From assembly GCF_965219775.1 (NCBI RefSeq), contig NZ_OZ244793.1, positions 2,039,634-2,103,633 of the forward strand: a stretch of DNA of 64,000 nucleotides. The letters run 5' to 3'. A program made the position numbers and the translations under genes. The stretch is from Candidatus Poriferisocius sp. GTDB taxonomy: Bacteria > Actinomycetota > Acidimicrobiia > Acidimicrobiales > Bin134. The stretch's first letter is position 1, and the number at the start of each line of letters is the position of its first letter. Under the pieces are notes generated by a model. The model worked only from the letters and a program-made list of their open reading frames with translations. It ran no database searches and was not told the DNA's origin. This document shows, piece by piece, positions 19,087 to 46,749 of this stretch.

Positions 19087-19922
19087 CCCCGGCCACGGTT
19101 CGCCACCCCGTCGCCCACTCCGTCCAGCACCTCCCGGTCGTCGTTGTGGCTGTGGGTGAAACCCAGTTGGCGCTCGGTGGCAATGGTGGCCTGCGACCGG
19201 AAGGCCAGGACGTAGGCCCGGCGGAACCCACCGGTGAAGTTGCCCCCCGAGCCGTGCATCACCCGCTCATTGTGAACGGTGACGTCACCGCGAGAGATCG
19301 GCACCGGCACCACCTGATCGTCGGGCAGGAGTTCGGTCCCCAGCGCGTGGGATTCACCGCGATCACCGTATTGGGGTTGGTGGGGTCGTAACGCCGCTTC
19401 CTCGACCGTGCCGGGCACAAAGCGCATGCAGCCGTTGTCGAGCGTGGAGTCGTCGATGGCCAACCACAGGGTGGCGGTTCGGGTGTCGGGCGTGTTCGGC
19501 CAATAGGCCAGGTCTTGGTGCCAGGCGAACACGGCGTCGTGCTTGTAGGGCTGCTTGGCCAGCAGTTGGTCGTAGTCGATGGCCATTCCCTCACCGCACA
19601 ATTGGGTGCTGACCGAAGCAGCCCGCCGCTCGAACACGTTGTTCTGCCATTCGGGGTGGTAGCGGCGGGGCAACATCACGTTGATGATGGAGAAGTCGGC
19701 AGGATCACGCCCGTAGTCACCCGCCATGTCGCAGTAGTCCTTTCCGGGTACCTCGATCTCACGGCGCAGAAACCGGTCGTACACCACCTCCAACTCGGCC
19801 ACTTCCGCTTCGGTGAGCAGGCCACGGAGATGCACATAGCCCCGAGTGGCGAAGTGTTCCTTCTCCTCGGCGGTCACCTGGTAGACGTCGCCGCGAATGC
19901 GATTGCTGATCTGGGGGTTCAT
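19074..19922 (-). CDS. phytanoyl-CoA dioxygenase (PhyH) family Fe(II)/2-oxoglutarate oxygenase
   Basis: The HxD facial-triad region is WHQDLAYWP and a distal His lies in VTVHNERVMHGSGGN. Its start overlaps the GH10 stop by 4 nt. Confidence 0.8.
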   Translation of the reverse strand: MNPQISNRIRGDVYQVTAEEKEHFATRGYVHLRGLLTEAEVAELEVVYDRFLRREIEVPGKDYCDMAGDYGRDPADFSIINVMLPRRYHPEWQNNVFERRAASVSTQLCGEGMAIDYDQLLAKQPYKHDAVFAWHQDLAYWPNTPDTRTATLWLAIDDSTLDNGCMRFVPGTVEEAALRPHQPQYGDRGESHALGTELLPDDQVVPVPISRGDVTVHNERVMHGSGGNFTGGFRRAYVLAFRSQATIATERQLGFTHSHNDDREVLDGVGDGVANRGRGQVT

Positions 19923-23778: not shown

Positions 23779-23890
23779 GGGCTTCCCGCCTACAACAGTT
23801 CTGGACGACGTGAGATACCAACGGTACATTTGTCGCGCAGTCGCCGCACTGACCAACGCGGCGCACCCAGGACAACAGGAGGGGGCAACC

Positions 23891-25399: not shown

Positions 25400-25433
25400 T
25401 GCACCGCGGCACCGCCCCATAGCCGGACCGGGC

Positions 25434-30574: not shown

Positions 30575-31125
30575 CCGCCTTCGCCGACCCTCCGATCACG
30601 GCCAAAGCGGAGGCCACCCGCAGCCACCTCCTGGGTCTGGCCACCGAGCTGTTCGTCCGACGGGGCTATGCCGCGGTGACGCTGGATGACATCGCCGGGG
30701 CCGCCGAGCTGACCAAGGGCGCCATCTACGGTCACTTCCGGTCCAAAGGGCAGTTGCTGGTGGAGGTGATCCGCCGCCTCCAGGGCCAGCTCGACGACAA
30801 CATCCGCTTCGGGGACGACTACCAGCTCTTCCTGCGCCCCGAGAGCGCCGATCTGCGACTGCTACTGGTGGACGCCGCGTCGGCGGCCCGCCATGACCCC
30901 GACGTGGCCGCGGGAATCGAGGAGATCTACTCGGCCCGCAACCGCTGGCTGCTCGACAACCTGGCCCACGCCTACCACGACCCCGACACCGTCTTGTTCA
31001 TCATCAGCGCCTTGTCCAACGGCATCGGGGTCGAGGAGGCCTTCGCCCGCCCGACCCCCAGCACCGACGTCTTCCGCCGTACGCTGCACACCATGCTGGA
31101 CGCCGTGGTCAAGAAACCCGCGTGA
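30571..31125 (+). CDS. TetR/AcrR family transcriptional regulator
   Basis: The N-terminal HTH is TRSHLLGLATELFVRRGYAAVTLDDIAGAAELTKGAIYGHFRSKGQLL. A GTGA overlap links it to the upstream gene. Confidence 0.8.
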   Translation: MTAFADPPITAKAEATRSHLLGLATELFVRRGYAAVTLDDIAGAAELTKGAIYGHFRSKGQLLVEVIRRLQGQLDDNIRFGDDYQLFLRPESADLRLLLVDAASAARHDPDVAAGIEEIYSARNRWLLDNLAHAYHDPDTVLFIISALSNGIGVEEAFARPTPSTDVFRRTLHTMLDAVVKKPA

Positions 31126-31126
31126 C

Positions 31127-32647
31127 ATGCGCTTTTGCTACATCGACATCGACACGCTGCGCGCCGACCATCTGGGGTGCTACGGCTACCACCGCAACAC
31201 GTCGCCCAACATCGACGCCATTGCTGCCGACGGCGTCCGCTTCGACAACGTGTACGCCTCCGACGTGCCCTGCCTGCCGTCGCGCACGGCCCTGGCCACC
31301 GGCTTGTTCGGCATCCGCAACGGGGTGGTCAACCACGGCGGCGCGGCGTCGGACCTACGGGCCGAGGGGGCGTCGCGGGCGTTCATCGGCAAGATCGCGG
31401 CCCTCTCCTGGGCGTCGAAGTTCTACTACGCCGGTTGGCACACGGCGTCGATCTCCAGCTTCCCGTTCCGCCACTCGGCCTCCTGGTGGAACCACGGGGT
31501 GATGGAGTCGCTCAACCTCATGCGGGGCATGGGCGGGGAGCGGGCCGACCAGGTGCTCCCCGGTGCCCTCGACTGGCTGGACCGCCGCGGCCGGGCCGAC
31601 CAGTGGTTCCTGCACATCCACCTGTGGGATCCCCACACCCCCTACAACACCCCGACCGCCTACGGGGACCCCTTTGCCGATGATCCCGCCCCGGCCTGGC
31701 ACACCGAGGAGATCCGTCTGCGCAACTGGGACTGGGCGGGGCCGCACTCGGCCCAGGAACCGTGGGGCTTCACCCCCGACGAGTGGGGTCCGCCGCCGGC
31801 CCGCCACCCGTGGAATGCCGACTCGATGGAATCGGTGAAGGGCATCTTCGACGGCTACGACACCGGCATCCGTTACGCCGACGACGCCGTGGGCGCCGTC
31901 ATGAACAAGCTGGACGATCTCGGCGTGCTCGACGACACCGCGGTGCTTATCTCTTCGGACCACGGCGAGGCCTTCGGCGAGTTGGGGGTGTACGCCGACC
32001 ACCAGGGTGCCGATGAGGCCACCTGCCACATTCCCTCCATCCTCCGCTGGCCCGGCCTGGCCCCGCGATCGTACGCCGGGCTGCATTACCACTTGGACGT
32101 GGCCGCCACCGTGGTGGACCTCGCCGACATCTCGGTGCCGGAGGGCTGGTGGAGCGGCCGGTCGGTCAGACCCGCCCTGGAGGCCGGTTCCGAGGCGGGC
32201 CGGGACCACCTGGTGCTTTCGCAGGGCGCGTGGTCGTGCCAGCGGGGTGTTCGCTGGGGCGACCATCTCTACCTGAGGACGTGGCACAACGGCTACCACC
32301 CCCACTGGAACGACGAGATGCTGTTCGACGTGGCCGCCGATCCCCACGAGGTCGATGATCTGGCCGGCGACCGGCCCGAGCTGGTGGCACTGGGTCGGTC
32401 GAAGCTCGAGGCCTGGACGGCCGAGCAACTCGAACTCGGCCTCGGCGACCGATCCGACCCCATGGAGACCGTGCTGGCCGAGGGCGGGCCCTACCACGTG
32501 CGGGGCCACCTCCCGGCCTACCTGGACCGCCTGCGCACCACCGGCCGCAGCCACTGGGCCGACCAGCTTGTCGAGCACTTTCCCGGCGACACCGACGGTG
32601 CGCCTGCTGGTCCCAAATGGGACGGGTCCGGCTTCGACTACTCCTAG
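31127..32647 (+). CDS. Cys-type (formylglycine) sulfatase, alkaline-phosphatase superfamily, no signal peptide
   Basis: ATG 31127 lies 1 nt after the tetR stop. The sulfatase signature is SDVPCLPSRTALATGLF (CxPSRxxxxTG). Metal-site regions are DTLRADHLGCYG and ISSDHGEAFGE. Confidence 0.85.
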   Translation: MRFCYIDIDTLRADHLGCYGYHRNTSPNIDAIAADGVRFDNVYASDVPCLPSRTALATGLFGIRNGVVNHGGAASDLRAEGASRAFIGKIAALSWASKFYYAGWHTASISSFPFRHSASWWNHGVMESLNLMRGMGGERADQVLPGALDWLDRRGRADQWFLHIHLWDPHTPYNTPTAYGDPFADDPAPAWHTEEIRLRNWDWAGPHSAQEPWGFTPDEWGPPPARHPWNADSMESVKGIFDGYDTGIRYADDAVGAVMNKLDDLGVLDDTAVLISSDHGEAFGELGVYADHQGADEATCHIPSILRWPGLAPRSYAGLHYHLDVAATVVDLADISVPEGWWSGRSVRPALEAGSEAGRDHLVLSQGAWSCQRGVRWGDHLYLRTWHNGYHPHWNDEMLFDVAADPHEVDDLAGDRPELVALGRSKLEAWTAEQLELGLGDRSDPMETVLAEGGPYHVRGHLPAYLDRLRTTGRSHWADQLVEHFPGDTDGAPAGPKWDGSGFDYS

Positions 32648-33486
32648 CGGGTGATCGGTACTGGTTCGTCCGAAGCCATCACCGGCCGGCCATCCCGCAG
32701 CACCTCCACCCAATCCTGATTCCAGGCCCGATGACCCACGCTGGCCGCGGCGGCGTAGTGGTAGACCATTGCGGCCCGGCTGGTGGCCGACCGGTTGTCG
32801 GTGGAACGGTGACGCAGGTGCGAGTGAAACACCAGCACGTCACCGGGCTCCATCAACACGGGTATCTCCCGGGAGACATCGGCGCCGACGATCTCCACGT
32901 AGCCCAGGTTGGCGTGTTCACGGCTGTCGGGCACCGCATCATGGATCGCCTCTCGATGCGAACCGGGGGCCACCCACAGGGGCCCGTTGTCGAGGGTGGC
33001 GGCGGTGCAAGCCAGCCACACCCCCACCTGAGGCGTGGGTTCCAGTCGAAAGTAGTAGTTGTCCTGATGCCACGGCTGACCCAGCGCACCGGGGTGCTTG
33101 AAGATGAACTGCGACAAGAAGCAGTCCACGTCCGTCCCCAGTAGGTCACCCACGATGGCCAGCAACCGGGGATCGGTGGCAAAGGACCGGAAGACCTCCT
33201 CGGTCCGCATCAACCGGAACACCTTCGAGAGCCGATCGGCGGGGTCCGGTCGGTCGGCGAGGGCACCCTCCCCGTTGACCCAGAGATCCGGCCGGTGGTC
33301 GCCGTCGGCCACCTCCCGGGCGATCTCGCTCACCCGACCGACCATGGCGTCCAGCGTCGCCCCATCCACAAACCCTGGCAGGAAGAAGAACCCCTGTTCC
33401 TCCCACGCCTCCCGCTGCCCCGCGCTCACCCCCACACCCCGGAAATCTACCGACCACCCATTCCCCCATCCACCCCACCCCGCCAC
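32644..33486 (-). CDS. phytanoyl-CoA dioxygenase (PhyH) family oxygenase
   Basis: Family features are WEEQGFFFLPGFV..., the HxD region PWHQDNYYF and the distal His in VLVFHSHLRHRS. The true start is probably a GTG near 33429-33435, because the first ~18 codons are Gly/Trp-rich. Confidence 0.75.
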   Translation of the reverse strand: MAGWGGWGNGWSVDFRGVGVSAGQREAWEEQGFFFLPGFVDGATLDAMVGRVSEIAREVADGDHRPDLWVNGEGALADRPDPADRLSKVFRLMRTEEVFRSFATDPRLLAIVGDLLGTDVDCFLSQFIFKHPGALGQPWHQDNYYFRLEPTPQVGVWLACTAATLDNGPLWVAPGSHREAIHDAVPDSREHANLGYVEIVGADVSREIPVLMEPGDVLVFHSHLRHRSTDNRSATSRAAMVYHYAAAASVGHRAWNQDWVEVLRDGRPVMASDEPVPITR

Positions 33487-33517
33487 TGTTTTGCCCCCGA
33501 AGCCATAGGATGGCGTT

Positions 33518-34519
33518 GTGGTTGTACTCGATGTTCAGCCGGCCCCGACGATGGAGGACGCCCATCGAGCGGCCGAGGTGATTTGTCGTGCGCTGAACCC
33601 GGCCGAGGTCATGGTGTTCGGTTCGGTCGCCCGAGGCCTCCAGCACCCTCTCTCCGACATTGACCTGGTGGTGCTGTTTGACGATCTTGGGGACTACAAG
33701 AGGCGCGGCGAGTTGGCAAGGCGCGCGGAGGCGGCCGTCACCGAAGCCACTGGCTTTCCCGCCAACGTCAAGGTGACGGACAGGCCGGAATGGAAAGTGC
33801 GGACGGAGTTGGTGAAGTCGTCCTTCGAGGCCCACATTGCGTCGCACGCAGTGCGGCTGGTGACTCGGCCCTCCAATGCACAAATCGATTGGAACAAGGA
33901 GATTGGTTTGGCCCCCAGCGATGCGCAGCAGGCAGAGAACTCCTTGGGCAACACGTTGAATTCCCTGGACAACCTCCGAGGGATCCTCAGCCCCTACGAA
34001 CACGAGGTGGGAGCTCTGGAGGCTGGAGACGCAGTGACGGCGCGAGAGGTGCTGCAGAATCGGATGCTGCGGGTTTGTTCCCTGTCGCAAGAGGTGATGG
34101 AGAACGCCCTGAAGTCCCTGATTCACGCCTTGAGAGGAGAACACCCGAGGAGGGTCCACAGCATCGAAGGGCTGATGGATTTTGCTCAAGCCCAGTTGGA
34201 TGCATCCACGGGCGCCCTCCTTCTCTCGGCCTTGGACGGATTGCAGGAGGGCAAGATCTCGGGTTGGCGCCAGGGGGCGAGCTATCCCGACGACATGGAC
34301 ATGGCTGTCAGTCGCGAAGATGCGACACCGGAGTACGCCTGGGCCATGGCCACCGCGGCCGCGCGGGTGGCCCAGAGGTGCGCCGAGACGATCGAAGCCC
34401 AGTTCGGCCATCCCACAACGCGAACCGCCGAAGTCATCACTCGGTGCAATGACCTGACCAAATGGATGGCCACCAGAGCCACCCCCGGCCAAGACCCCGA
34501 CCACCACCCCACCCCGTAG
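33518..34519 (+). CDS. single-chain minimal nucleotidyltransferase (MNT) - HEPN domain fusion protein
   Basis: The N-terminal pol-beta NTase motif is VFGSVARGLQHPLSDIDLVVLFDD (GS...DxD). The C-terminal helical HEPN-like region is ENALKSLIHALRGEHPRRVHSIEGLMDF (compare the xxTHDLxxL motif of PF05168-type HEPN). An alternative start is ATG 33551. Confidence 0.7.
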   Translation: MVVLDVQPAPTMEDAHRAAEVICRALNPAEVMVFGSVARGLQHPLSDIDLVVLFDDLGDYKRRGELARRAEAAVTEATGFPANVKVTDRPEWKVRTELVKSSFEAHIASHAVRLVTRPSNAQIDWNKEIGLAPSDAQQAENSLGNTLNSLDNLRGILSPYEHEVGALEAGDAVTAREVLQNRMLRVCSLSQEVMENALKSLIHALRGEHPRRVHSIEGLMDFAQAQLDASTGALLLSALDGLQEGKISGWRQGASYPDDMDMAVSREDATPEYAWAMATAAARVAQRCAETIEAQFGHPTTRTAEVITRCNDLTKWMATRATPGQDPDHHPTP

Positions 34520-34574
34520 ACCAGGCTGCCTTCTAGGGCCGCCCCCTTGAGCGGTGGGGTCTCGGGATGGTTGC

Positions 34575-34601
34575 GGGGTCCCACCGAGAGGATGGAACCC
34601 C
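34575..34601. terminator. possible weak bidirectional hairpin between convergent genes
   Basis: GGGGTCC (34575-34581) pairs with GGAACCCC (34594-34601) with one bulge and a 12-nt loop. A modest T-containing stretch follows. This was hand-folded only. Confidence 0.2.
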
Positions 34602-34627
34602 CCGAATTCTTGTATCGGACAATTGAG

Positions 34628-37153
34628 TCACGTTTCGATCACGACTGGGACTTCGGCTTCGATCGCAACCGGAGTCCAGAGGTCCACCTCGACATCCGGT
34701 GAGTCGATCGACACGATCAGCGCGTACCGCACACCGGCCTCGCTACGGTCGCGGGCGCTTCGTTCCTTCCACCAGCCGGTGACCGGATAGACGGCAATCG
34801 CCCCTCGGGCCGCAAGTTCGGCTGCGGGTCCAGTCCAGTGATCCACATGCAGGGATCCTCGGACCCGCTCTCGCGGACCGAGCAGCCACTGATCAGCGTC
34901 GCTGTCCGAGCTGGGTCGCTGCTCGTCCTCCGACCGGGCGAGCCTGTTGATTCGCTTGCAAAACTCGCCGTTGCCTTCAGTGGCACGCCGCACATCAAAT
35001 CGGAGACCATGCGACGCGTATCGGAAGCGTTGCGCCCAACCTCGACGAGCCGGGCTCGGCTGAATGAAGTACGACAGCACGACTCGCATCTGCAACTCAA
35101 CCTCGCCAAGATCGCCCAGGGCATCAGCGGGCCATGGGAGGTTGTGAAGGTGCATCTCACGCATCTTGCCGTCGAGGTAGGGACGGATCCGGTGCTGCCC
35201 GATCAGCGTGACCGAGTCGTTTGCGGAGCGTAGCGCCCGGTTCATGTCGGGCACGCCCCATCCGTAGCGCCGCAGGCTCGCCACGGCTCCTTGCCGGTTG
35301 GTCCCGCTGAAATGCTTCGTCATGGAGTCGGTCCAGCGGGCCGAATGAACAATGAGTCCACGAAGTGCCTCCGGCCACAAGTGCGGGTACTCCGTCGCCA
35401 GGCGTTGGGCCAGATACGCTGCTTGCGCCGTTGCTGGGCTCGTACCGGTGACAGTCGTAAGTGGTCGACCGCCTAGCGCGGGTGCTCGGGTAGTGAGGAT
35501 TTGCAGATCTGGAGGGGTGTCGATGGAGCGATCGATTGGTGACACCGCTGCGTTTCCCCCTTCGAGAACGACCTCCGGCTTGTGGGGCCATTGGGAGCGA
35601 AAACCAACTGAGGTCCGACTGAAGGGCGACAGTTCCCCCGCTGATGCAAGAGGCACCCACCCCTCGAAGTCCTCGTGAACAATGTGGGAAAACTGGGTGA
35701 AGGCACCGACGGTCAAGGCGTTCCAAGCCTGACCTGGATCCTCAACTGGTTCGACGTCACTACGATCGAGATGATCTTCATCCAGAGGCACGCGGACGTT
35801 GCCCGCTGAGATGATGAACAGCCGTTCCGCTCCGCCGTCGGGTTCATCTATGTAGACAAGATCGCCATCGGCGGAAGACACTGCGCGGCCTGCCGCCAGA
35901 GCGTCGACCGCGGCCGACCACGCGGAAGGCTGACCGAGGTCCGATGGGTCTGCGGCGGAGTTCGGGGCCGTCACCGCGAGCGCGAAGGACCGGCGTCGCT
36001 GAGGGTGTTCGATCTCGATAATCGATGTCGCCTGGGCGGTGATGGCGCCGTACAGCTCAGGGTCGTTCTTGCCCGAGTCTGGAAGAATCTTGACCGACTC
36101 GATGCGGCCCTGGACCTGGATTGGCCCGTCGACCAAGAAGCACTCAGCAAGATCCCCGTGAATTGCGAGACCGGCCATCTCGGTGCCGTGCCCTCGACGA
36201 TCATCGCTGCCCCACCGAGGATCCACGCTGTGAGCGTCATTCGGCGCAATCGCGATCCGGAGCAGCGGGTGTTCTGTCGTCACTCCTGTGTCCAGCAGGC
36301 ACGTCACTGCACGATCATCGGCTGGCACGACCAGTCGCCCAGCCAACTCGTCCACAAACTCGCCTTGTTCGGATGCTGGCAGATCCGCCAAGAACTGTGC
36401 AGGGTCCACAGGGTGACGAAGCTCAGAAATGTCGTCAAGTAGATTGAGGGCTGAGCCGAGCTGTCCGGATGTGGCTCGCACGAGGACCACCAAGCGATCT
36501 TCCAAGACCAGTCGTTGGCGCCCGATCGTAACCCCGATGATTTCGGCGAAGTCTTGGAGTCGTGAGTTCACTCCTTCCCGATTCCGAAGCCATACCTCCC
36601 ACCACACTGCCTTCTCACTGTCGGGAAAAGCGTCTTCGTCGTCGGTCCAGAGGGCACGAAGTGTCGCCAGTCGCAACTCTGCAATTCTCTCCACCAGATT
36701 CTTGTTCTTGGGATTGCCGCGATTCGTGTCTTCGGAGACGTAGTCCTCGAATCGCTTTGTGAACCTCCCAATCCAACCCTCGGGAACGAAGACTGTTGCC
36801 AATTGCACAGACTCCCCCTCGACCTCACGTGTCGTCACTGCGCACAGCTCGGGGTGAACGGATCCCTGCTGAGGCTCAAGTGAGGTCAGTGCAAGCTCGA
36901 AACCAGGATGCGACTGGAACTGCACATAGATGCCCTCCAAGGCACCTTCGACTTGAATGGCGTCGTGATCTTCCTTACGCCTCTGGGCCGCTTCCGCCGC
37001 GGCGTCCAGTTGATCGATGAGTTTGCGGCCGTGCTGTATTCGGTCGGCAGGTGATGGCGGGGCTCCCGACTCGCGTCCCGATGTCGGCGGGGCGTAGTCA
37101 TCAACCCAAGGAGCCCGCGTGACGATGACGTGGCGCCTGTTCCGTTCTGCCAT
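34628..37153 (-). CDS. cytoplasmic S8 (subtilisin-like) serine peptidase with ~280-aa N-terminal domain of unknown family (IetS-like)
   Basis: The catalytic set is CLLD288TG (codon 36290-36292), GH322GTEMAG, SAGN452 and GTS572PATAQ (codon 35438-35440). There is no signal peptide or TM helix. The start lies 9 nt downstream of the AAA ATPase stop. Confidence 0.85.
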   Translation of the reverse strand: MAERNRRHVIVTRAPWVDDYAPPTSGRESGAPPSPADRIQHGRKLIDQLDAAAEAAQRRKEDHDAIQVEGALEGIYVQFQSHPGFELALTSLEPQQGSVHPELCAVTTREVEGESVQLATVFVPEGWIGRFTKRFEDYVSEDTNRGNPKNKNLVERIAELRLATLRALWTDDEDAFPDSEKAVWWEVWLRNREGVNSRLQDFAEIIGVTIGRQRLVLEDRLVVLVRATSGQLGSALNLLDDISELRHPVDPAQFLADLPASEQGEFVDELAGRLVVPADDRAVTCLLDTGVTTEHPLLRIAIAPNDAHSVDPRWGSDDRRGHGTEMAGLAIHGDLAECFLVDGPIQVQGRIESVKILPDSGKNDPELYGAITAQATSIIEIEHPQRRRSFALAVTAPNSAADPSDLGQPSAWSAAVDALAAGRAVSSADGDLVYIDEPDGGAERLFIISAGNVRVPLDEDHLDRSDVEPVEDPGQAWNALTVGAFTQFSHIVHEDFEGWVPLASAGELSPFSRTSVGFRSQWPHKPEVVLEGGNAAVSPIDRSIDTPPDLQILTTRAPALGGRPLTTVTGTSPATAQAAYLAQRLATEYPHLWPEALRGLIVHSARWTDSMTKHFSGTNRQGAVASLRRYGWGVPDMNRALRSANDSVTLIGQHRIRPYLDGKMREMHLHNLPWPADALGDLGEVELQMRVVLSYFIQPSPARRGWAQRFRYASHGLRFDVRRATEGNGEFCKRINRLARSEDEQRPSSDSDADQWLLGPRERVRGSLHVDHWTGPAAELAARGAIAVYPVTGWWKERSARDRSEAGVRYALIVSIDSPDVEVDLWTPVAIEAEVPVVIET

Positions 37154-37162
37154 AGTCCGGCC

Positions 37163-38140
37163 TCATTCAGGCGGACTGTCCGACCGATTTCGCCACCTGA
37201 GCGCCTCCACGAGAAAATCTGTCCTGACCTGGAGGGTGCCAGCCAAGATCGAATCCTTGGCTGCCTGTTCAGCAGCGGCCGTGACCTCCGAGTGGCTCAG
37301 CCCCTTGGCAGCGGTGGACACTCCACGCCAGTCCACCGCCCGAAGGTCGAGCGACGCAAGGCGAGCGCGTATCACTTGCTTTGCGATGGCCCCAGTCGGC
37401 ATCGGGTAGTCGAGGGTTGCATCGAATCGTCGATACAGCGCTCGGTCGAGATGCTCAGGCAGGTTCGACGTGGCGACGATAACGCTGTCGGACACATCTT
37501 GCTCGAGGAACTGCAGGAAGGAGTTCAGCACTCTTCGGATCTCACCGACATCATTGCTCAGACCACGCGCACCGGCGAGTGCGTCGACTTCATCGAACAG
37601 GTATACGCCTGCGATCTCCGCAACCTGGTCAAAGATGAGGCGTAGTTTCGCCGCAGTCTCTCCCATGAACTTCGTAATCAAGCCCTCTAGTCGGACCGTG
37701 AAGAGCGGAAGATGCAGCTCGCCAGCCAGCACCTTGGCCGTCAGCGTCTTACCCGTCCCCGGAGGGCCCACGAGCAGCAGACGGCGCTGAGGCGCGAAGC
37801 CCGTTGCCCGAAGGCGATCCCGTTGCCGCTGTTCCAGCAACACTCGACGCAGCAACGACAGGACGTCGTTGTCCAGCGACAGGTCTGACAACCGCTGTTC
37901 CGGGTACTCCACGGAAAGCAAGGCCGCCAGATCACCGCGCGGCGAAGCCACCGGCGTCGGTCCGGGTCTCGGCACTCGCCCCTTCGACGCGTCGATCAGA
38001 TCTCGCAGTTGCTGCGCGTACCCTGCGTGGCCGCTGCGCGCTTCCCGAGCAGCCATCTGGAGCGCCACGGCGTAGAACTGGTCGTCGTCACCCGCGGCGT
38101 GACTCTTGATCAGGGCCTTCACTTGAGCCGCAGTCGCCAT
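37163..38140 (-). CDS. AAA+ family ATPase (IetA-like)
   Basis: 325 aa. Walker A is GPPGTGKT (residues 125-132) and Walker B is VYLFDEVD (about residues 179-186). A sensor/arginine region follows (VIVATSNLPEHLDRALYRRFD). An N-terminal helical region of about 110 aa precedes these. Confidence 0.85.
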   Translation of the reverse strand: MATAAQVKALIKSHAAGDDDQFYAVALQMAAREARSGHAGYAQQLRDLIDASKGRVPRPGPTPVASPRGDLAALLSVEYPEQRLSDLSLDNDVLSLLRRVLLEQRQRDRLRATGFAPQRRLLLVGPPGTGKTLTAKVLAGELHLPLFTVRLEGLITKFMGETAAKLRLIFDQVAEIAGVYLFDEVDALAGARGLSNDVGEIRRVLNSFLQFLEQDVSDSVIVATSNLPEHLDRALYRRFDATLDYPMPTGAIAKQVIRARLASLDLRAVDWRGVSTAAKGLSHSEVTAAAEQAAKDSILAGTLQVRTDFLVEALRWRNRSDSPPE

Positions 38141-38518
38141 CTCCTACACCTCACCTCGTCCGTACACGGGTGGCGGCACCCCCTGACCCATCACCGTAGT
38201 TCAGGCCTCCGGGCTGCCAGAGGTCCAATCCATTGCCGACATCAAGGCCTCAGTCGTGTTCGCGGCCCCTCCAATATGAACCGCGTGGGCGACCGATTCC
38301 TGCACGGCCAGTTCGAGCCTGGCCCCGGGAACACCACGCCTGCCGCGCACAAGGCCTCCTTGCACGGCAAACCCGTTCCCATCCGGCCATCTCCCCCTGT
38401 AGCGTTCGGTGGCTCCCCCCCCGCCGCATTCTGCCCTCCGAGGTTGCTCCTGCCTGTCACCGGTGTCGGTATGCTGTTGGCAGAGAAGCCCCAGTTCACA
38501 GCCCCTGGGCTTACCACG

Positions 38519-38524
38519 AAGGAG
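38519..38524 (+). promoter_or_regulatory. Shine-Dalgarno AAGGAG, 6 nt upstream of GTG 38531
   Basis: A canonical AAGGAG with a 6-nt spacer (ATCGAA) precedes an in-frame GTG that opens the small ORF ending at 38722. Confidence 0.4.
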
Positions 38525-38530
38525 ATCGAA

Positions 38531-38722
38531 GTGGAGACTCAGACTGTCCCTCGAGAGGACATCGTTGAGATGTTGCGATGGAATGCCGAAGCGACCGGTC
38601 TGGGACTGCGCGATTTCTACGAACTCGGCAAGGATGACCGCCTCGACCACCCCCTGCTCAGAGACCTCTGGCTCATCTGGGGCGACGTCCTGACAGAATC
38701 CGACCTGCTCTCGGCAGCGTGA
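38531..38722 (+). CDS. small hypothetical protein (63 aa; 83 aa if ATG 38471 is used), first gene of a three-gene cassette
   Basis: The sequence is VETQTVPREDIVEMLRWNAEATGLGLRDFYELGKDDRLDHPLLRDLWLIWGDVLTESDLLSAA. Its stop overlaps the next gene's GTG (GTGA). No family recognised. Confidence 0.4.
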   Translation: METQTVPREDIVEMLRWNAEATGLGLRDFYELGKDDRLDHPLLRDLWLIWGDVLTESDLLSAA

Positions 38723-39369
38723 ACGACACACTCAAATCACACCCCTCTGCGGGGGCCTACTTGGGCCGTGGAATCTACGATGTTGCAGAGGTCGCGCGCC
38801 TCACAAAGTGCAGTAGGCGTCGGGTGGAAGGGTGGACCAGGACCGGTGCCGTGAGGGAACCCCTGCTGTCGGGAGAACTGGACGGCCTGTTCAGCTTTTG
38901 GGACCTGCTCAGCCTCCGCGTCATCGGTGAACTTGTGGATCGAGGAGTGCCACGAGCTGAAATCGCCGAGGGGGCCAACTACCTGGCCGTTAGGCTGGGT
39001 ACTCACAGGCCATTCGCCCATCAGGGTCTTGCCACGGTTGGCCGGGGGTTCTTTGCCGACATTGGGAGTTGGGTAGATGTCGGCAGGGGCGGTCAACAGG
39101 CCTTCCAGGTTGTGATTGAACCCCTACTTAAGCCAATCACATTCAATGAATCGGGTATGGCAGCCATTTGGAGACCGCATCTGGGAGTCTGGGTGAACCC
39201 AGAGGTCCAAGCAGGGGCACCCTGTGTCGATGGCACGAGGACACCCACGGCCACACTCGCTCAATTGCATAACTCTGGGTTGAGCATAGAGGACTTGTCG
39301 GATGACTACCGACTCCAATATGAACAAGTGCAAGCTGCCATTGATTTTGAAGCCAGCATGGCGGCGTGA
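38719..39369 (+). CDS. HTH + DUF433 domain protein (VapB45-like putative antitoxin/regulator)
   Basis: The N-terminal HTH-like segment is GIYDVAEVARLTKCSRRRVEGWTRTG. The C-terminal DUF433 signature is NPEVQAGAPCVDGTRTPTATLAQLHNSGLSIEDLSDDYRLQYEQVQAAIDF. Confidence 0.75.
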   Translation: MNDTLKSHPSAGAYLGRGIYDVAEVARLTKCSRRRVEGWTRTGAVREPLLSGELDGLFSFWDLLSLRVIGELVDRGVPRAEIAEGANYLAVRLGTHRPFAHQGLATVGRGFFADIGSWVDVGRGGQQAFQVVIEPLLKPITFNESGMAAIWRPHLGVWVNPEVQAGAPCVDGTRTPTATLAQLHNSGLSIEDLSDDYRLQYEQVQAAIDFEASMAA

Positions 39370-39896
39370 GCCCTCAACCGACAAAACCCAGACTACGCCC
39401 TAAGATTCGACTCCTATTCGACGAAAATCTGCCTTGGAGAGTGGCTGCAGCCTTGGAGACACTCAACTTTCACTCTACCTATGTCGGGGATAAGAACCAC
39501 CCTGATGTTCCAACTAGGGGCTCATCAGATGAGGAAGTTCTGAGGTATACTGAAGGGGTAAATCGAACTATTGTGACTTCCAACTACGACATGATCTTGC
39601 TGTGCACTGAGCGCAAGCAATCGGTGATTTGGATAGATGCACGAGGCCGTGACTTTCGATTTGAAGAACTTGTTCTGCTAGTCTTTAAGAATATCTCCGA
39701 CTGGAATGACAGGCTCAAACAAGCTTCACTTCCAATATGCCTTCAGGCTATGAGGACGAAGACTGTCACGCTGACTATGGAAGAGGCCGCGCAGCGTGCC
39801 CACTCGAGGATGCTTCGCAGCTCCGCCAAAAAACGGAGAAACAAGTCCCATACACCGCTGGGCCCTCTCCTGTCCCCTGAAGATGAATCGAAGTGA
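39366..39896 (+). CDS. DUF5615 (PIN-like/Mut7-C-like) putative toxin nuclease with extended basic C-terminal tail
   Basis: A GTGA overlap links it to the DUF433 gene. IRLLFDENLPWRVAAAL ... IVTSNYDM matches the DUF5615 core. This gene has the lowest G+C in the window (30/60 and 31/60 in two hand-counted lines). Confidence 0.7.
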   Translation: MSPQPTKPRLRPKIRLLFDENLPWRVAAALETLNFHSTYVGDKNHPDVPTRGSSDEEVLRYTEGVNRTIVTSNYDMILLCTERKQSVIWIDARGRDFRFEELVLLVFKNISDWNDRLKQASLPICLQAMRTKTVTLTMEEAAQRAHSRMLRSSAKKRRNKSHTPLGPLLSPEDESK

Positions 39897-40037
39897 TGCC
39901 CAACGACCGCTGACTGCCATGAGCAGGTCAAGGTCCCAGTGTGGGCTGGCTCTCCGGCAACGGACTCGGCCCACATCAGTCATGCTCCAATCTGCTGCGG
40001 CCACCAATGGAGCTTGCCGTGGCCAGGCGGAGACGGG

Positions 40038-41894
40038 TTAGTCGGGGGGTGGGAGTTGGCGTTCCAGGGTTTGGGCTCGGGGGCTGATGGACAGGTCGAA
40101 GTCGGTGCTGCCGAGGGTGGAGGGGTTCCACACCTCTTGGTTCCGCATCCATTGGGCCCAACCGGAGAACCAGCCCGTGTGGTAGGAGTCGAGTTGGGGA
40201 GCCCACCAGTCCCGCAGTGGTAGGCGGGTGGTCTGGTAGTCGGCGAGCTGGGGGGCGGCCGAGGCAAAATCGCTCTCGGGCAGGTGGAGCACGAAGTCGG
40301 CGGTGACCTGAGGGGCGGTGTCCCGGTTGGCCCAGGTGAGCCCCGGATAGTCGCGGAGATACCACAGGTTGGGCACCGACATGGCGGTGTCCACCGCCAC
40401 GGTCACCGGTCCCTCGCCAACGGACACGCTGTAGCGGTTGAGGGCCTCGATGCGCTCCACCGTGCCCACATAGTCGTCAGTGGTGTGGACCTGGGTGAGC
40501 AGCTCCCGGGGATCGCGCTGGTTCACGTAGTTGGCCCGCCACGACACGAACAGCGTGGTGGCCACCAACCCGGCCATCACCACCCACACCGGGACCATCG
40601 CCACGTTCCTCCGGGCTCGCCACAGCACCTCCACGCCGTAGCCCGCCAAGAACGCCATGGGCACCAGGATGTGCAGGGCCAACCACGGGAACCGCTCGCT
40701 GGCCCAGGAGTACGACAGCCAACTGGCCACCGCCGACCACACCATGAACTTCCCCAGCAGGGTGGGACGGAGAAAGACCCGCACCGTGCCGATCGCCGCC
40801 AGGATGCACACCAGGTACTCGTACGCCGGGATGGTGTAAAGGTAGTAGTGCCACGGCTCGCCGCCCCGATTGGTGTCCTGCTCGCCCCGCCAGTAGGTGA
40901 TGCCCTCGGTGAAGCCGTCAAGGAAACTCCCCGGCCGGGTGAAGAACTCCGTGAACCACAGGGCGAAGAAGAACAGAAAGACCGCCGCGGCCAGAATCCA
41001 GCCCCACGCAGGCACCCGTCGGGCCATCCGCACCACTGGCAGCTCCCAGATCGTCCGGGGGTCGGCCAACAGCAAGAGGACCTCCAGCATCAACACGCCG
41101 TAGATGCCCAGCGTGAGGAAGACCTCCACGTCGTAGTACGCGCTGACGCCAAAGGCGATGCCCATGGGCAACAACCCCAACGGCAGCATCCACGACCACC
41201 CCGGCGGCCCCGCGCCACGCTCGGTTTCGCCGGTCGGGGCCCTCTGGTGGACGGCCTGTTCGATCAGCAGGGCCAGGAAGAACCCTCCGAAGATGAACAC
41301 GGCGATGAACGTGGACTCCTTGACGGCGAATCCCGCGGCCAGCAAGAACCCGAACAGCGCGGGCAAGAGCAACCGGGGGCGGTCCAGGAACCGCACGATC
41401 ACCACCATCATGGCCAAGATGAGAAAGGCGGTGAGCGAGTCCTCACGGCCCAGCCGGGTCATGTAGAGGGAAATGGGGCTGAACGCCAGCACCGCGGCGG
41501 CGGTCAAGGTGGCCACCGGGCCGAGCGACCGGCGCAGGAACCACGGCAGAATGATCAGCCCCACGCCGGCCAGCACCGCCACCATGCGAGCGGTGGTGGG
41601 CGACTCCCCGAACACCCAGAAGAACCCAGCCGTCAGGTAGAACCGCAGCGGCCCGTGGTACACCGGGTCGTAGCCCTCGAAGGTGCCCTCCAGGAACCGC
41701 CACGAGAACCACGCGTCCAGGCTCTCGTCGTGATGCAACGGGCGCTCGGCCAGCTCCACCAGCCGCACCACCAACCCGGCCACCGCCAGCACCCCCACCG
41801 CCACGGCCAGCGTCCGCTCCGGGTGTCGGCGCCACAACTCGGGGGTCCACCACCTGGCCGCCCCCAGCCCACGACCATGCGTCATCGTCGACAA
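40038..41894 (-). CDS. GT-C fold membrane glycosyltransferase-like protein (TIGR03663 / GT39-like)
   Basis: 618 aa polytopic membrane protein. The first-loop acidic motif is ERPLHHDESLDAWFSWRF, and the many TM helices followed by a C-terminal soluble domain are typical of ArnT/PMT-like enzymes. Confidence 0.7.
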   Translation of the reverse strand: MSTMTHGRGLGAARWWTPELWRRHPERTLAVAVGVLAVAGLVVRLVELAERPLHHDESLDAWFSWRFLEGTFEGYDPVYHGPLRFYLTAGFFWVFGESPTTARMVAVLAGVGLIILPWFLRRSLGPVATLTAAAVLAFSPISLYMTRLGREDSLTAFLILAMMVVIVRFLDRPRLLLPALFGFLLAAGFAVKESTFIAVFIFGGFFLALLIEQAVHQRAPTGETERGAGPPGWSWMLPLGLLPMGIAFGVSAYYDVEVFLTLGIYGVLMLEVLLLLADPRTIWELPVVRMARRVPAWGWILAAAVFLFFFALWFTEFFTRPGSFLDGFTEGITYWRGEQDTNRGGEPWHYYLYTIPAYEYLVCILAAIGTVRVFLRPTLLGKFMVWSAVASWLSYSWASERFPWLALHILVPMAFLAGYGVEVLWRARRNVAMVPVWVVMAGLVATTLFVSWRANYVNQRDPRELLTQVHTTDDYVGTVERIEALNRYSVSVGEGPVTVAVDTAMSVPNLWYLRDYPGLTWANRDTAPQVTADFVLHLPESDFASAAPQLADYQTTRLPLRDWWAPQLDSYHTGWFSGWAQWMRNQEVWNPSTLGSTDFDLSISPRAQTLERQLPPPD

Positions 41895-45997: not shown

Positions 45998-46065
45998 CCT
46001 ACGCCCGGAAGCCCAATTCGGTGGGCCCGACCGCAACCTGCCACACGGCCATAGGGCGACGAGAA

Positions 46066-46749
46066 CTACTCCCGGGAGCCGATTTCGGTATTGATCCAAG
46101 CGATGAGCTGTTGTTGATTGCGGGTTTGGGTCAAGATGTCGCCGGGGCCGGTGAAATGGAACACCAAACCCTCGCCCGACTTCATCGACTGGATGGAGCG
46201 GCCCTCCACCGCCCGACGCAGCTCGAAGGTCACGGTGTCGGGAAAGGCCAGCATGTGGTTGGTGTCCACCACCACCGTCTCACCCGCCCCCAGGGAGATC
46301 ACGTCGATGGCGCCGTAGGAGGCCACCAGCAGCTTGCCCACCCCCTCGGCGTGAACCATGAAGCCGCCTTCGCCGCCCACCAGCGACTTGAACCCGCTCC
46401 ACTTGGCGTCGATGTCCACCGCGGCATCGGAAGCCAGCCAATTGCCCCGCTCCACGATCCACGACTGGGAACCGTCCAACTCGATCACCCGCAGATCGCC
46501 GGGGAGCTTGGCGGCCACGTCCACCCACCCCCCTTGAGCGGGAGCGGTGAAGGTGGACATGAACAGCGACTCACCCCCCAGCACGCTTCGCTTCAGCCCC
46601 TTGAGCACGCCGCCTTCGATCTTGGCCTCCAGCGCCATCCCGACGGAGTGGGCCATCATGGCCCCGGCTTCGACCTTGACGGCTTCTGAGGCGCGCAACC
46701 GGCAACGGGCCACCCCGAAACTGGGGGCATGACGAATCTCTACATCCAT
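46066..46749 (-). CDS. AIM24 / TIGR00266 (DUF124) family protein
   Basis: The start is ATG 46749 (MDVEIRHAPSFGVARCRL...). The repetitive beta architecture, with GGEGGFMVHAEG and SGEGLVFHFTGPG, is typical of the family. Confidence 0.8.
   Translation of the reverse strand: MDVEIRHAPSFGVARCRLRASEAVKVEAGAMMAHSVGMALEAKIEGGVLKGLKRSVLGGESLFMSTFTAPAQGGWVDVAAKLPGDLRVIELDGSQSWIVERGNWLASDAAVDIDAKWSGFKSLVGGEGGFMVHAEGVGKLLVASYGAIDVISLGAGETVVVDTNHMLAFPDTVTFELRRAVEGRSIQSMKSGEGLVFHFTGPGDILTQTRNQQQLIAWINTEIGSRE

What the first reader, a model, noticed from the sequence alone, without database searches (positions are those of the whole stretch)
33487..40037. Compositionally distinct ~6.5-kb island made only of conflict-system modules, with no visible mobility gene
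**Seen in the sequence.**
- G+C drops sharply between the phyH-like gene and the GT-C gene.
- Hand counts of single 60-nt lines inside the island:
  - line 39421 (DUF5615 gene): 30/60;
  - line 39601 (DUF5615 gene): 31/60;
  - line 36541 (S8 gene): 33/60;
  - line 33841 (MNT-HEPN gene): 35/60.
- Flank lines give 45/60 (line 33241) and 43/60 (line 40561).
- All seven ORFs inside are defence/toxin-antitoxin-type: an MNT-HEPN fusion, an AAA+ ATPase, an S8 protease, a small ORF, an HTH-DUF433 protein and a DUF5615 protein. Both flanks are ordinary metabolic or envelope genes.
- I found no integrase, transposase, tRNA or obvious terminal repeat at either edge.

**Inference.**
- This is a horizontally acquired defence islet.
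- It is possibly mosaic, because the three transcription units differ in G+C.
- The insertion mechanism is not evident.
Basis: partly seen in the sequence, partly recalled or inferred. Interest (0 to 1): 0.7.

Follow-up and report, generated by a model that had tools for sequence, protein, structure and literature searches.

The report
Mosaic defence islet beside phyH
A 6.5-kb low-G+C patch in a sponge-symbiont chromosome is a patchwork of three independently travelling toxin-antitoxin or anti-phage cassettes, parked in a slot next to the phyH gene that related bacteria fill with other defence genes; it is a real but ordinary example of a known kind of "defence hotspot".

Summary
The compositional observation holds. 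Window 33487-40037 has 61.2% G+C against 69.2% elsewhere and is the strongest G+C, tetranucleotide and dinucleotide outlier in the 64 kb. There is no tRNA, integrase, transposase or terminal repeat.

It holds six genes, not seven:
- an MNT-HEPN-like nucleotidyltransferase;
- IetS and IetA (S8 protease and AAA+ ATPase, a known toxin-antitoxin and anti-phage pair);
- an 83-aa orphan;
- an HTH-DUF433 / DUF5615 pair (the known PIN-COG2442, VapBC-type toxin-antitoxin).

The host is Candidatus Poriferisocius sp. (sponge-associated Acidimicrobiia). Each cassette sits alone at other loci in relatives, and DNA homology ends at the cassette edges, so the islet is mosaic.

In about 22 related genomes the same slot, just 5' of the phyH promoter, is either empty or holds PhdYefM-PIN, ZacABC, Type ISP restriction-modification or DUF222-HNH genes. 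One relative carries IetAS plus BREX on the other side of phyH.

phyH and the GT-C gene are never neighbours elsewhere. The islet lies at a synteny breakpoint.

Verdict: a horizontally acquired mosaic defence/toxin-antitoxin islet in a lineage-wide hotspot. It is a new member of a known kind. The insertion mechanism remains unresolved. Interest is low to moderate.

The parts
32644..33486 (-). phyH (phytanoyl-CoA dioxygenase family). This is the conserved left anchor of the slot. The true start is probably near 33435-33454.
   Evidence: Pfam PhyH, 3e-34. Homologs at 62-76% identity occur in about 40 Acidimicrobiia loci. DNA homology to relatives ends at 33454.
33455..33550 (.). Left boundary. 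It is a divergent intergenic region holding a degenerate copy of the conserved phyH promoter-like motif.
   Evidence: The 24-nt motif GAGAATCGACCGTTGGTATATTTC is present as a single copy directly 5' of phyH in about 27 relatives, whatever fills the slot. The window keeps ...GGTCGGTAGATTTCC.
33551..34519 (+). MNT-HEPN-like two-domain nucleotidyltransferase (WP_420639150; NCBI's PGAP annotation pipeline starts it at 33518).
   Evidence: Pfam NTP_transf_2, 2e-10, and HEPN at 22.3 bits against a cut-off of 22. PADLOC candidate PDC-S09. A family profile hits MNT structures 1wot and 5yep, and the HEPN structure 1ufb at E = 0.003. The AlphaFold2 model has pLDDT 93.7. The best Foldseek matches are ANT(4'), KNTase, AadA and HalB, with MntA for the N-terminal domain.
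34628..37153 (-). IetS, the S8 subtilase-type toxin or effector of IetAS (WP_420639151).
   Evidence: Pfam Peptidase_S8, 8e-51. PADLOC IetS, 5.5e-37. It is 41% identical over its full length to the pTiC58 S8 partner. The D288/H322/S570 motifs are intact.
37163..38140 (-). IetA, the AAA+ ATPase (antitoxin-like partner) of IetAS (WP_420639152).
   Evidence: PADLOC IetA, 5.8e-64. Pfam AAA, 7e-28. It is 55% identical to the pTiC58 partner. Walker A and Walker B motifs are present. A 9-nt gap separates it from ietS.
38141..38470 (.). Spacer between the divergent ietA and small-ORF starts. It has no homolog in any fetched locus.
   Evidence: blastn and tblastn found nothing for 38155-38742. There is no Rfam match and no consensus promoter.
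38471..38722 (+). An 83-aa protein of unknown function (WP_420639153). Its stop overlaps the DUF433 start codon (GTGA).
   Evidence: The exact sequence is on record. There are 27 representative homologs, with a conserved LRDLWLIWGD motif. The homolog examined is solitary between a permease gene and RNase HII. No Pfam, PADLOC, NCBIfam or PDB match was found.
38719..39369 (+). MerR-HTH + DUF433 (COG2442) protein, the predicted antitoxin and regulator (WP_420639154).
   Evidence: Pfam DUF433, 9e-15, and MerR_1, 5e-8. Homologs at 74-80% identity occur in many sponge-associated Acidimicrobiia. In two of the three neighbourhoods examined it is followed by DUF5615.
39366..39896 (+). DUF5615 (COG4634) PIN-like protein, the predicted toxin (WP_420639155). 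At 50% G+C it is the lowest in the window.
   Evidence: Pfam DUF5615, 5e-12. NCBI names it a 'DUF5615 family PIN-like protein'. Its start overlaps the DUF433 stop by 4 nt.
39897..40037 (.). Right boundary, a convergent intergenic region.
   Evidence: DNA homology to L081 and L082 resumes at 40075, inside GT-C. No repeat is shared with the left edge.
40038..41894 (-). GT-C-type glycosyltransferase (PMT_2), the right flank. It is host-like in composition (GC3 0.91).
   Evidence: Pfam PMT_2, 1.6e-11. It is 76% identical to the L081 and L082 homologs, where it lies next to the homolog of window gene 18289-19086.

Best explanation
**What it is.** The region is a horizontally acquired, mosaic defence/toxin-antitoxin islet. 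It occupies a variable slot immediately upstream of the phyH promoter in the chromosome of Candidatus Poriferisocius sp., a sponge-associated member of the Acidimicrobiia.

**What it is made of.** It consists of three independently circulating cassettes plus one orphan gene.
1. A solitary MNT-HEPN-like nucleotidyltransferase.
2. ietA-ietS. From the literature, the S8 protease is the toxic effector and is held in check by the AAA+ ATPase. The pair stabilises the replicons and islands that carry it and can block phage. The anti-phage trigger is unknown.
3. An HTH-DUF433 / DUF5615 pair of the PIN-COG2442 (VapBC) type. From the characterised VapBC10 system, the DNA-binding DUF433 protein neutralises the PIN-like toxin and regulates the operon, and proteolysis of the antitoxin frees the toxin.

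**How it probably got there (inferred).**
- The cassettes arrived separately, or were reshuffled, without an integrase of their own.
- The most likely route is homologous or illegitimate recombination after plasmid, transduction or transformation delivery. Their addictive (toxin-antitoxin) character would then keep them in place.
- The slot also coincides with a chromosomal rearrangement junction.

**What is shown.** The composition, the gene content, the cassette boundaries, and the variability of the slot among relatives are shown by tool results.

**What is inferred.** The direction and route of transfer, the activity of each module, and the role of recombination are inferred.
For: **Composition**
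- The islet is the G+C, GC3, tetranucleotide and dinucleotide outlier of the window.

**Gene content**
- PADLOC IetA scores 5.8e-64 and IetS 5.5e-37.
- The pair is 55% and 41% identical over full length to the AAA/S8 pair of pTiC58, where IetAS was defined (PMC5006074).
- The catalytic triad and Walker motifs are intact.
- DUF433 and DUF5615 match Pfam above the gathering scores, and the two genes overlap.
- PIN-COG2442 is a validated toxin-antitoxin system (PMC3834315).
- COG4634 and COG2442 are enriched in sponge symbionts (PMC5649159).

**Mosaic structure**
- DNA homology stops at the cassette edges.
- Close IetAS homologs (67-69%) sit next to NYN, PhdYefM-PIN or PLD-helicase genes, not next to MNT-HEPN or DUF433.
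- DUF433-DUF5615 (about 79% identical) sits beside GmrSD, NERD and NYN genes, or after holB.
- MNT-HEPN paralogs are solitary among metabolic genes.
- The cassettes have lower G+C than at least one flank, by 2-10 points, in most of the other hosts examined.

**Hotspot**
- In about 22 relatives the interval between the conserved c5/c6 genes and phyH is either empty or filled. The fillings are PhdYefM with or without PIN, ZacABC, Type ISP restriction-modification, DUF222-HNH, or a small ORF. All have lower G+C than their flanks.
- L041 carries IetAS plus the BREX genes BrxL, PglZ and PglX on the 3' side of phyH.

**Plasmid link**
- IetAS-like DNA is found on 141 plasmids, 81 of them conjugative.

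**No mobility signatures**
- None were found.

**Assembly support**
- An independent contig covers 36186-39596 at 99.9% identity.

**Concept**
- Core defence hotspots with conserved flanks, low G+C and no mobile-element marks are already described (PMC10250203).
Against: - No strain of the same species lacking the islet was available, so the empty site is inferred from relatives that are only 62-89% identical at protein level.
- Only the phyH side of the slot is conserved. On the other side the window has GT-C, unlike all other genomes examined. The islet could therefore have been carried in with, or created by, a rearrangement rather than inserted in place.
- The MNT-HEPN-like family and the DUF433 family are largely confined to the same lineage of Acidimicrobiia. 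Part of the 'foreign' composition may thus reflect circulation within the lineage rather than import from afar.
- No function was tested. The NCBIfam equivalog cut-offs are not reached for IteA (188 against 510 bits) or MntA (36 against 60 bits).
- The recombination route is conjecture.
Confidence: 0.8

Rival explanations
1. The islet is the decayed cargo end of a once-complete integrative element (prophage, integrative conjugative or mobilisable element, or transposon). Its integrase and att sites have been deleted or lie beyond the islet.
For: - IetAS-type pairs are carried on conjugative plasmids and on the integrative island SGI1, where they aid maintenance (PMC5006074).
- A 578-nt spacer (38141-38718) has no DNA homolog in any fetched locus and could be debris.
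- In five relatives a DUF222-HNH gene sits between the cargo and phyH.
Against: - There is no integrase, transposase or relaxase domain, no tRNA and no flanking repeats in or near the islet.
- There is no remnant of the relatives' HNH gene or other slot genes in the window.
- No close relatives were found in IMG/VR, and only a 281-nt phage hit.
- The three cassettes have separate histories, which does not fit a single element.
Confidence: 0.12
2. The islet did not insert between phyH and GT-C. A chromosomal rearrangement moved the roughly 14-kb carbohydrate-utilisation block (19.1-33.5 kb) together with a pre-existing phyH-side defence slot next to GT-C. The 'island' boundary on the right is therefore a rearrangement junction.
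For: - In L081 and L082, GT-C is separated by only a 340-nt glutaredoxin-like gene from the homolog of window gene 18289-19086. Window 19080-40074 is therefore extra relative to them.
- The block 21322-33486 is syntenic in about 35 other relatives, with phyH at its end and a variable slot beyond it.
Against: - This explains the position, not the origin. The cassettes are still compositionally foreign and are found elsewhere in relatives.
- The reading is compatible with, rather than exclusive of, the main explanation.
- The direction of the rearrangement cannot be set without an outgroup and whole genomes.
Confidence: 0.45
3. The low G+C is not a sign of transfer. It reflects relaxed or different selection on native, fast-evolving accessory genes of this lineage.
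For: - The MNT-HEPN-like and DUF433 families are mostly found in the same sponge-associated Acidimicrobiia.
- The MNT-HEPN paralogs in relatives have nearly host-like G+C.
Against: - The six genes are absent from this locus in all relatives.
- IetAS and DUF433-DUF5615 occupy different loci in different genomes.
- DUF433 is 79-80% identical between genomes whose flanking core proteins are 62-89% identical.
- DUF5615 at 50% G+C sits in a 69% genome.
Confidence: 0.05
4. The islet is an assembly or binning artefact: a chimeric join in a metagenome-assembled genome.
For: - The source is a metagenome-assembled genome.
- Six short-read contigs carrying a related IetAS all break 200-280 nt upstream of ietA. 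This shows that such regions are hard to assemble.
Against: - The source contig is a 3.45-Mb long-read chromosome.
- An independent contig from another sample reproduces 36186-39596 at 99.9% identity.
- The left junction keeps the lineage-specific phyH promoter motif right up to the islet.
Confidence: 0.03

Closest known systems
Core defence hotspots (for example cDHS1 of Pseudomonas aeruginosa; PMC10250203)
   Same: Both are chromosomal slots next to conserved core genes with variable defence content between genomes. Both have lower G+C than the genome and no obvious mobile-element genes.
   Different: - The slot here is seen across genus- to family-level relatives (phyH 62-76% identical), not within one species.
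- Only one flank (phyH and its promoter) is conserved with respect to the window.
- The islet is small (6.5 kb) and rich in toxin-antitoxin genes.
IetAS of pTiC58 and SgiAT of SGI1 (AAA+ ATPase with S8 protease, toxin-antitoxin and anti-phage system)
   Same: - The gene order is the same, with the ATPase first and a 9-nt gap.
- Identity to the pTiC58 pair is 55% and 41% over full length.
- The catalytic residues are intact, and there are strong PADLOC IetA and IetS hits.
   Different: - The pair is chromosomal in an actinobacterial sponge symbiont.
- It scores below NCBIfam's IteA equivalog cut-off.
- There is no helicase partner, unlike the ietHAS variant (PMC13069673).
- Activity is untested.
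PIN-COG2442 VapBC-type toxin-antitoxin systems (VapBC10 of Synechocystis; Makarova et al. 2009)
   Same: A DUF433/COG2442 protein lies upstream of, and translationally coupled to, a PIN-like protein. The pair is conserved as a unit in relatives.
   Different: - The antitoxin carries an extra N-terminal MerR-type HTH domain.
- The toxin is of the DUF5615/COG4634 PIN-like type.
- An 83-aa ORF of an uncharacterised family is coupled upstream in this genome only.
MntA-HepT (MNT-HEPN, type VII toxin-antitoxin) and two-domain nucleotidyltransferases (ANT(4')/KNTase, AadA, Hailong HalB)
   Same: - The N-terminal minimal nucleotidyltransferase domain has the GS-x9-11-DxD motif.
- The C-terminal helical domain is HEPN-like.
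   Different: - Both domains are fused in one chain.
- The canonical Rx4-6H motif is not conserved (a conserved R-x-H is present instead).
- There is no partner gene.
- Fold matches are weak (E about 1e-3, TM 0.3-0.4 over full length).
- The family is largely restricted to sponge-associated Acidimicrobiia.

Membership tests
IetAS | A two-gene operon with the AAA+ ATPase gene directly upstream of the S8 serine protease gene. | tested here: met
   ietA is at 37163-38140(-) and ietS at 34628-37153(-), with a 9-nt gap.
IetAS | Profile matches to IetA and IetS models. | tested here: met
   PADLOC IetA scores 5.8e-64, covering profile positions 2-319 of 374. PADLOC IetS scores 5.5e-37.
IetAS | NCBIfam IteA equivalog cut-off. 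| tested here: not met
   The score is 188 bits against a cut-off of 510. The model is an E. coli-type equivalog, so this argues for a divergent subfamily rather than against homology.
IetAS | Full-length homology to the founding pTiC58 pair. | tested here: met
   Identity is 55% (IetA) and 41% over 836 aa (IetS). The validated SgiAT pair is 50% and 36% identical (PMC5006074).
IetAS | Intact protease triad and Walker A/B motifs. | tested here: met
   DTG at residue 288, HGT at 322 and GTS at 570; GPPGTGKT at 125 and the DE Walker B motif at 179.
IetAS | Toxicity of the protease neutralised by the ATPase, and phage protection. | not testable with these tools
   This needs expression and phage assays.
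PIN-COG2442 (VapBC-type) toxin-antitoxin | A DUF433/COG2442 gene followed by, and coupled to, a PIN-like gene. | tested here: met
   Pfam DUF433 scores 54.8 bits (cut-off 23.6) and DUF5615 scores 46.2 bits (cut-off 23.8). The two genes overlap by 4 nt.
PIN-COG2442 (VapBC-type) toxin-antitoxin | The pair is conserved as a unit in other genomes. | tested here: met
   L092 and L096 carry DUF433 with DUF5615. In L093-L095 the toxin is degraded.
PIN-COG2442 (VapBC-type) toxin-antitoxin | Growth arrest by the PIN protein, relieved by the DUF433 protein. | not testable with these tools
   This has been shown only for Synechocystis VapBC10 (PMC3834315).
MntA-HepT (type VII toxin-antitoxin) | A minimal nucleotidyltransferase with the GSxxRG...DxD motif. 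| tested here: met
   G24, S25, G29, D36 and D38 are invariant in 40 homologs. The family profile hits 1wot and 5yep.
MntA-HepT (type VII toxin-antitoxin) | A HEPN domain with a conserved Rx4-6H RNase motif. | tested here: inconclusive
   - Pfam HEPN scores 22.3 bits against a cut-off of 22.
- The HEPN structure 1ufb is hit at E = 0.003.
- The alignment conserves H203 within P-x-R-x-H, not Rx4-6H.
MntA-HepT (type VII toxin-antitoxin) | Two separate, adjacent genes for antitoxin and toxin. | tested here: not met
   It is a single 322-aa chain, and its homologs are solitary genes. NCBIfam MntA scores 36 bits against a cut-off of 60.
Core defence hotspot | The same core-gene flank across genomes, with variable content between them. 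| tested here: met
   The phyH promoter motif marks the boundary in about 27 loci. The content ranges from empty to about 9 kb of toxin-antitoxin, Zac, Type ISP or HNH genes.
Core defence hotspot | Both flanks conserved. | tested here: not met
   The window has GT-C on the far side. Relatives have c5/c6 or other genes there.
Core defence hotspot | Lower G+C than the genome and no mobile-element hallmark genes. | tested here: met
   Some relatives do carry a DUF222-HNH gene in the slot.
Integrative mobile element (prophage, integrative conjugative or mobilisable element, or transposon) | A recombinase or transposase gene, a tRNA or other att target, and flanking direct or inverted repeats. | tested here: not met
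   No such domains, no tRNA in the 64 kb and no edge repeats were found.

The most novel reading that the evidence does not exclude
The interval just upstream of the phyH promoter may be an ancient docking site for defence cargo, conserved at genus to family level in sponge-associated Acidimicrobiia. It would be served by an unrecognised, integrase-free insertion route. One candidate is breaks made by the DUF222-HNH endonuclease gene that sits between the cargo and phyH in five relatives.

In addition, the single-chain MNT-HEPN-like protein and the 83-aa LRDLWLIWGD protein coupled to DUF433-DUF5615 may be new self-contained or tripartite conflict modules, rather than passengers.
Probability: 0.1. 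Interest if true: 0.6.

Novelty: new member of a known kind. Interest (0 to 1): 0.3.

Why it matters
- It adds a documented defence/toxin-antitoxin hotspot, anchored on phyH, to a little-studied and uncultured group of sponge symbionts.
- Hotspot organisation without mobile-element genes, known mainly from within-species comparisons in Pseudomonas, E. coli and Acinetobacter, is seen here across genomes whose core proteins are only 62-89% identical.
- The slot could be used as a lookup site for finding new defence genes in sponge-symbiont genomes assembled from metagenomes.
- The components themselves are known families, so the individual finding does not change current understanding.

Tried and rejected
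- **Edge repeats.** A search for direct and inverted repeats around both edges (seed 8) gave only chance-level matches.
- **tRNA, tmRNA and Rfam.** Nothing was found at gathering or at E <= 1, apart from a spurious togavirus frameshift hit.
- **Promoters and terminators.** The consensus scan found fewer sites than in shuffled sequence.
- **phyH-GT-C adjacency.** No relative has the two genes adjacent.
- **Remnants of the relatives' slot genes.** tblastn for HNH, PhdYefM, PIN, Zac, Type ISP, c5 and c6 in the window gave no hits.
- **An att-like second copy of the phyH promoter motif.** Each locus has a single copy. L009 and L024 have only a degenerate near-copy 66 nt upstream.
- **The two PhyH paralogs bracketing the 19-33.5-kb block as recombination substrates.** They are only 28% identical.
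- **Phage carriage.** No close relatives were found in IMG/VR, and there was one 281-nt hit in the phage collection.
- **The 176-aa antisense ORF at 38201-38731.** It has no record and no homolog, so it was rejected as a gene.
- **Exact look-up of the source contig through P0121.** This failed.
- **PDB sequence searches for IetS and DUF5615.** Both were empty.
- **A glutaredoxin-like gene, present at the L081 and L082 junction.** It is absent from the window.

Full report
**1. The observation**

The region 33487-40037 has 61.2% G+C against 69.2% for the rest of the window. Of all 6.5-kb windows, the minimum lies at 33501. The 500-nt profile drops from 0.67-0.70 in the flanks to 0.57-0.65 inside, and to 0.48 at 39250-39749.

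Third-position G+C is 0.53-0.77 in the islet genes. It is 0.82-0.91 in the neighbouring genes.

Measures independent of G+C agree. Tetranucleotide L1 distance to the rest of the window reaches z = 12.8, and Karlin's dinucleotide delta* reaches z = 4.6. The top eight tetranucleotide windows all overlap the islet, as do seven of the top eight delta* windows.

No mobility signature was found:
- There is no tRNA or tmRNA in the whole window.
- There is no Rfam family.
- No repeat pair brackets the edges beyond 20-31-nt matches at 70-77%.
- No recombinase or transposase domain appears in any ORF.

**2. Gene content**

The source is Candidatus Poriferisocius sp. (taxid 3101276), on a 3,447,695-bp contig. 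RefSeq lists six consecutive proteins here, WP_420639150 to WP_420639155. The islet therefore has six genes, not seven. The 176-aa ORF at 38201-38731(-) has no database record and no homolog.

*(a) 33551-34519(+), an MNT-HEPN-like protein*
- It has an N-terminal minimal nucleotidyltransferase domain (Pfam NTP_transf_2, 2e-10).
- It has a borderline HEPN match, 22.3 bits against a cut-off of 22.
- G24, S25, G29, D36 and D38 are invariant in 40 homologs.
- A family profile hits the MNT structures 1wot and 5yep, and the HEPN protein 1ufb at E = 0.003.
- A confident AlphaFold2 model (pLDDT 93.7) most resembles two-domain nucleotidyltransferases (ANT(4'), KNTase, AadA, Hailong HalB). These matches are weak, with E about 1e-3 and TM 0.3-0.4. 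The N-terminal domain resembles MntA.
- The canonical HEPN Rx4-6H motif is not conserved. A P-x-R-x-H motif is conserved instead.
- The family is small (169 hits) and mostly from sponge-associated Acidimicrobiia. The nearest homolog is 47% identical. Its paralogs in a related genome are solitary genes among metabolic genes.
- I therefore treat "MNT-HEPN fusion" as a correct description of the architecture, but the function is open.

*(b) 37163-38140(-) and 34628-37153(-), IetA and IetS*
- PADLOC scores are 5.8e-64 for IetA and 5.5e-37 for IetS.
- Identity to the AAA/S8 pair of pTiC58 is 55% and 41% over full length. The system was defined on that plasmid (Yamamoto et al. 2009, as cited in PMC5006074).
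- The D288/H322/S570 triad and the Walker A and B motifs are intact.
- According to PMC13069673, the protease is the toxin and the ATPase the antitoxin. The anti-phage mechanism is unknown.
- The homologous SgiAT pair stabilises the genomic island SGI1.
- NCBIfam's IteA equivalog cut-off is not reached (188 against 510 bits). This is a divergent subfamily.

*(c) 38471-38722(+), an 83-aa protein*
- Its stop overlaps the next gene's start.
- It has 27 representative homologs with a conserved LRDLWLIWGD motif.
- The homolog examined is a solitary gene.
- No library names it.

*(d) 38719-39369(+) and 39366-39896(+), the DUF433-DUF5615 pair*
- The first gene encodes a MerR-HTH plus DUF433 protein. 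The second encodes a DUF5615 PIN-like protein.
- This is the PIN-COG2442 pair predicted by Makarova et al. and validated as VapBC10 in Synechocystis (PMC3834315).
- COG4634 and COG2442 were reported as a co-occurring network enriched in sponge symbionts (PMC5649159).

**3. Mosaic structure**

DNA-level homology to other genomes covers exactly 34663-38154 (IetAS, 68-69%) and 38758-39900 (DUF433-DUF5615, 69-76%). The 590 nt between them match nothing.

Each cassette has different neighbours elsewhere:
- The closest IetS homologs (67-71%) lie beside a small ORF plus NYN gene, or beside PhdYefM-PIN pairs and a PLD-helicase gene.
- DUF433-DUF5615 (74-80% identical) lies beside GmrSD, NERD and NYN genes, or directly after holB. 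In one case its toxin is degraded.

The cassettes have lower G+C than at least one flank, by 2-10 points, in most of the other hosts examined. Within the window there are two compositional classes, about 62-64% up to 38.7 kb, and 58% then 50% beyond.

IetAS-like DNA is detectable on 141 plasmids, 81 of them conjugative. These include Ti plasmids and Rhodococcus megaplasmids. Nothing comparable was found in the phage collections.

**4. Context in relatives**

A scan of species-representative genomes with phyH returned about 40 Acidimicrobiia loci at 62-76% identity. The left flank of the window (21322-33486) is syntenic in about 35 of them. It comprises a GH3 gene, two large genes, a sulfatase gene and phyH. 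Nothing from the right flank is ever found beyond phyH in those loci.

Two metagenome contigs carry the GT-C region at 75-89% identity. In them, GT-C is separated from the homolog of window gene 18289-19086 only by a 340-nt glutaredoxin-like gene. That gene is missing from the window.

Relative to those contigs, window 19080-40074 (21 kb) is extra. It consists of a host-like carbohydrate-utilisation block plus the islet. The islet therefore sits at a synteny breakpoint.

**5. The slot is a hotspot**

ORFs from 52 loci were clustered and profile-scanned. In the Poriferisocius clade the interval between two conserved genes (c5, c6) and phyH takes several forms:
- It is empty in about 8 loci.
- It holds a small membrane ORF in three loci.
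- It holds PhdYefM with or without PIN in about six loci.
- It holds ZacABC plus DUF222-HNH in two loci.
- It holds a Type ISP restriction-modification enzyme plus DUF222-HNH in two loci.

Most of this content has lower G+C than its flanks.

A 24-nt motif, GAGAATCGACCGTTGGTATATTTC, resembles an extended -10 promoter. It lies directly 5' of phyH in about 27 loci, whatever fills the slot, and the window keeps a degenerate copy. The slot boundary is therefore the phyH promoter, and there is no second, att-like copy.

In L041, which has the closest phyH (76%), the other side of phyH carries IetS and IetA (53% and 59% identical) followed by BrxL, PglZ and PglX. All are at 56-61% G+C.

This matches the published concept of core defence hotspots: conserved flanks, low G+C and no mobile-element marks. 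Transfer by transduction and homologous recombination has been proposed for them (PMC10250203).

**6. Assembly check**

An independent low-coverage contig from another sample matches 36186-39596 at 99.9% identity. This supports contiguity from ietS to the DUF5615 gene. The two outer junctions could not be checked.

**7. Conclusion**

Its inference, an acquired and mosaic islet with no visible insertion mechanism, is supported.

New points from this work:
- The host is identified.
- The left edge is a lineage-wide variable defence slot at the phyH promoter.
- The right edge is a rearrangement junction.
- The three cassettes circulate independently. IetAS is linked to plasmids, and DUF433-DUF5615 circulates widely among sponge Acidimicrobiia.

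All components belong to known families, and the organisation is a known kind (a core defence hotspot). The finding is therefore a new member of a known kind, of modest interest. The leads with the most residual novelty are the single-chain MNT-HEPN-like family, the small LRDLWLIWGD protein, and the recurrent DUF222-HNH gene at the slot in relatives.

Noticed in passing
window 19080-40074: Relative to the two closest GT-C-bearing contigs (L081 and L082, 75-89% aa identity), this whole 21-kb stretch is extra. It replaces a 340-nt glutaredoxin-like gene. It begins with a second PhyH paralog (19074-19922, 28% identical to the first) and an SCP2-GH10 gene (19919-21631).
   Followed up: partly
window 33455-33480; L002-L051 at about 9981-10009: A conserved 24-nt motif, GAGAATCGACCGTTGGTATATTTC, lies directly upstream of phyH in about 27 Acidimicrobiia loci. 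It looks like an extended -10 promoter or an operator. It marks the invariant edge of the variable slot.
   Followed up: partly
window 38471-38722 (+): This 83-aa ORF belongs to a small uncharacterised family (27 representatives) with an almost invariant LRDLWLIWGD motif. Elsewhere it is a solitary gene between a permease gene and RNase HII. Here it is translationally coupled to the DUF433 gene.
   Followed up: partly
L009 8532-9851, L010 8632-9903, L023 8588-9859, L024 8463-9851, L030 8485-9792: A DUF222-HNH endonuclease gene (the family of the mycobacterial REP13E12 elements, from my own knowledge) always lies between the larger defence cargo and phyH, in the same orientation. It may be a hotspot-associated mobility or break-making factor. 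No remnant is present in the window.
   Followed up: partly
L041 569-10515: The relative with the closest phyH carries IetS, IetA and the BREX genes BrxL, PglZ and PglX on the 3' side of phyH, all at 56-61% G+C. Both sides of phyH can therefore host defence cargo in this lineage.
   Followed up: partly
L010 1837-8179; L024 1858-8269: A complete ZacA, ZacB and ZacC trio (PADLOC scores 350, 469 and 1041 bits) occupies the phyH slot in two relatives. L023 keeps only ZacA next to a Type ISP enzyme, which suggests cargo replacement.
   Followed up: no
L083-L088 (six contigs from different samples): All six contigs carrying the closest multi-sample IetAS homolog end 200-280 nt upstream of ietA. This suggests a strain-variable junction that breaks short-read assemblies.
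   Followed up: no
L093-L095 7720-8365: Here the DUF433 gene is intact but DNA homology to the DUF5615 gene stops midway and no toxin gene is called. This is an antitoxin-only remnant of the cassette.
   Followed up: no
window 46021-46689 (+), 62691-63425 (-), 3165-4667 (+), 56630-57631 (-): These ORFs have GC3 below the window norm (0.64-0.76 against about 0.9) and no Pfam match. The first has a homolog in L081 and L082 (67%). They may be mis-called frames or minor accessory genes.
   Followed up: partly
window 38201-38731 (-): This 176-aa ORF, antisense to the small ORF, is probably spurious. It has no database record, no homolog and no domain.
   Followed up: yes
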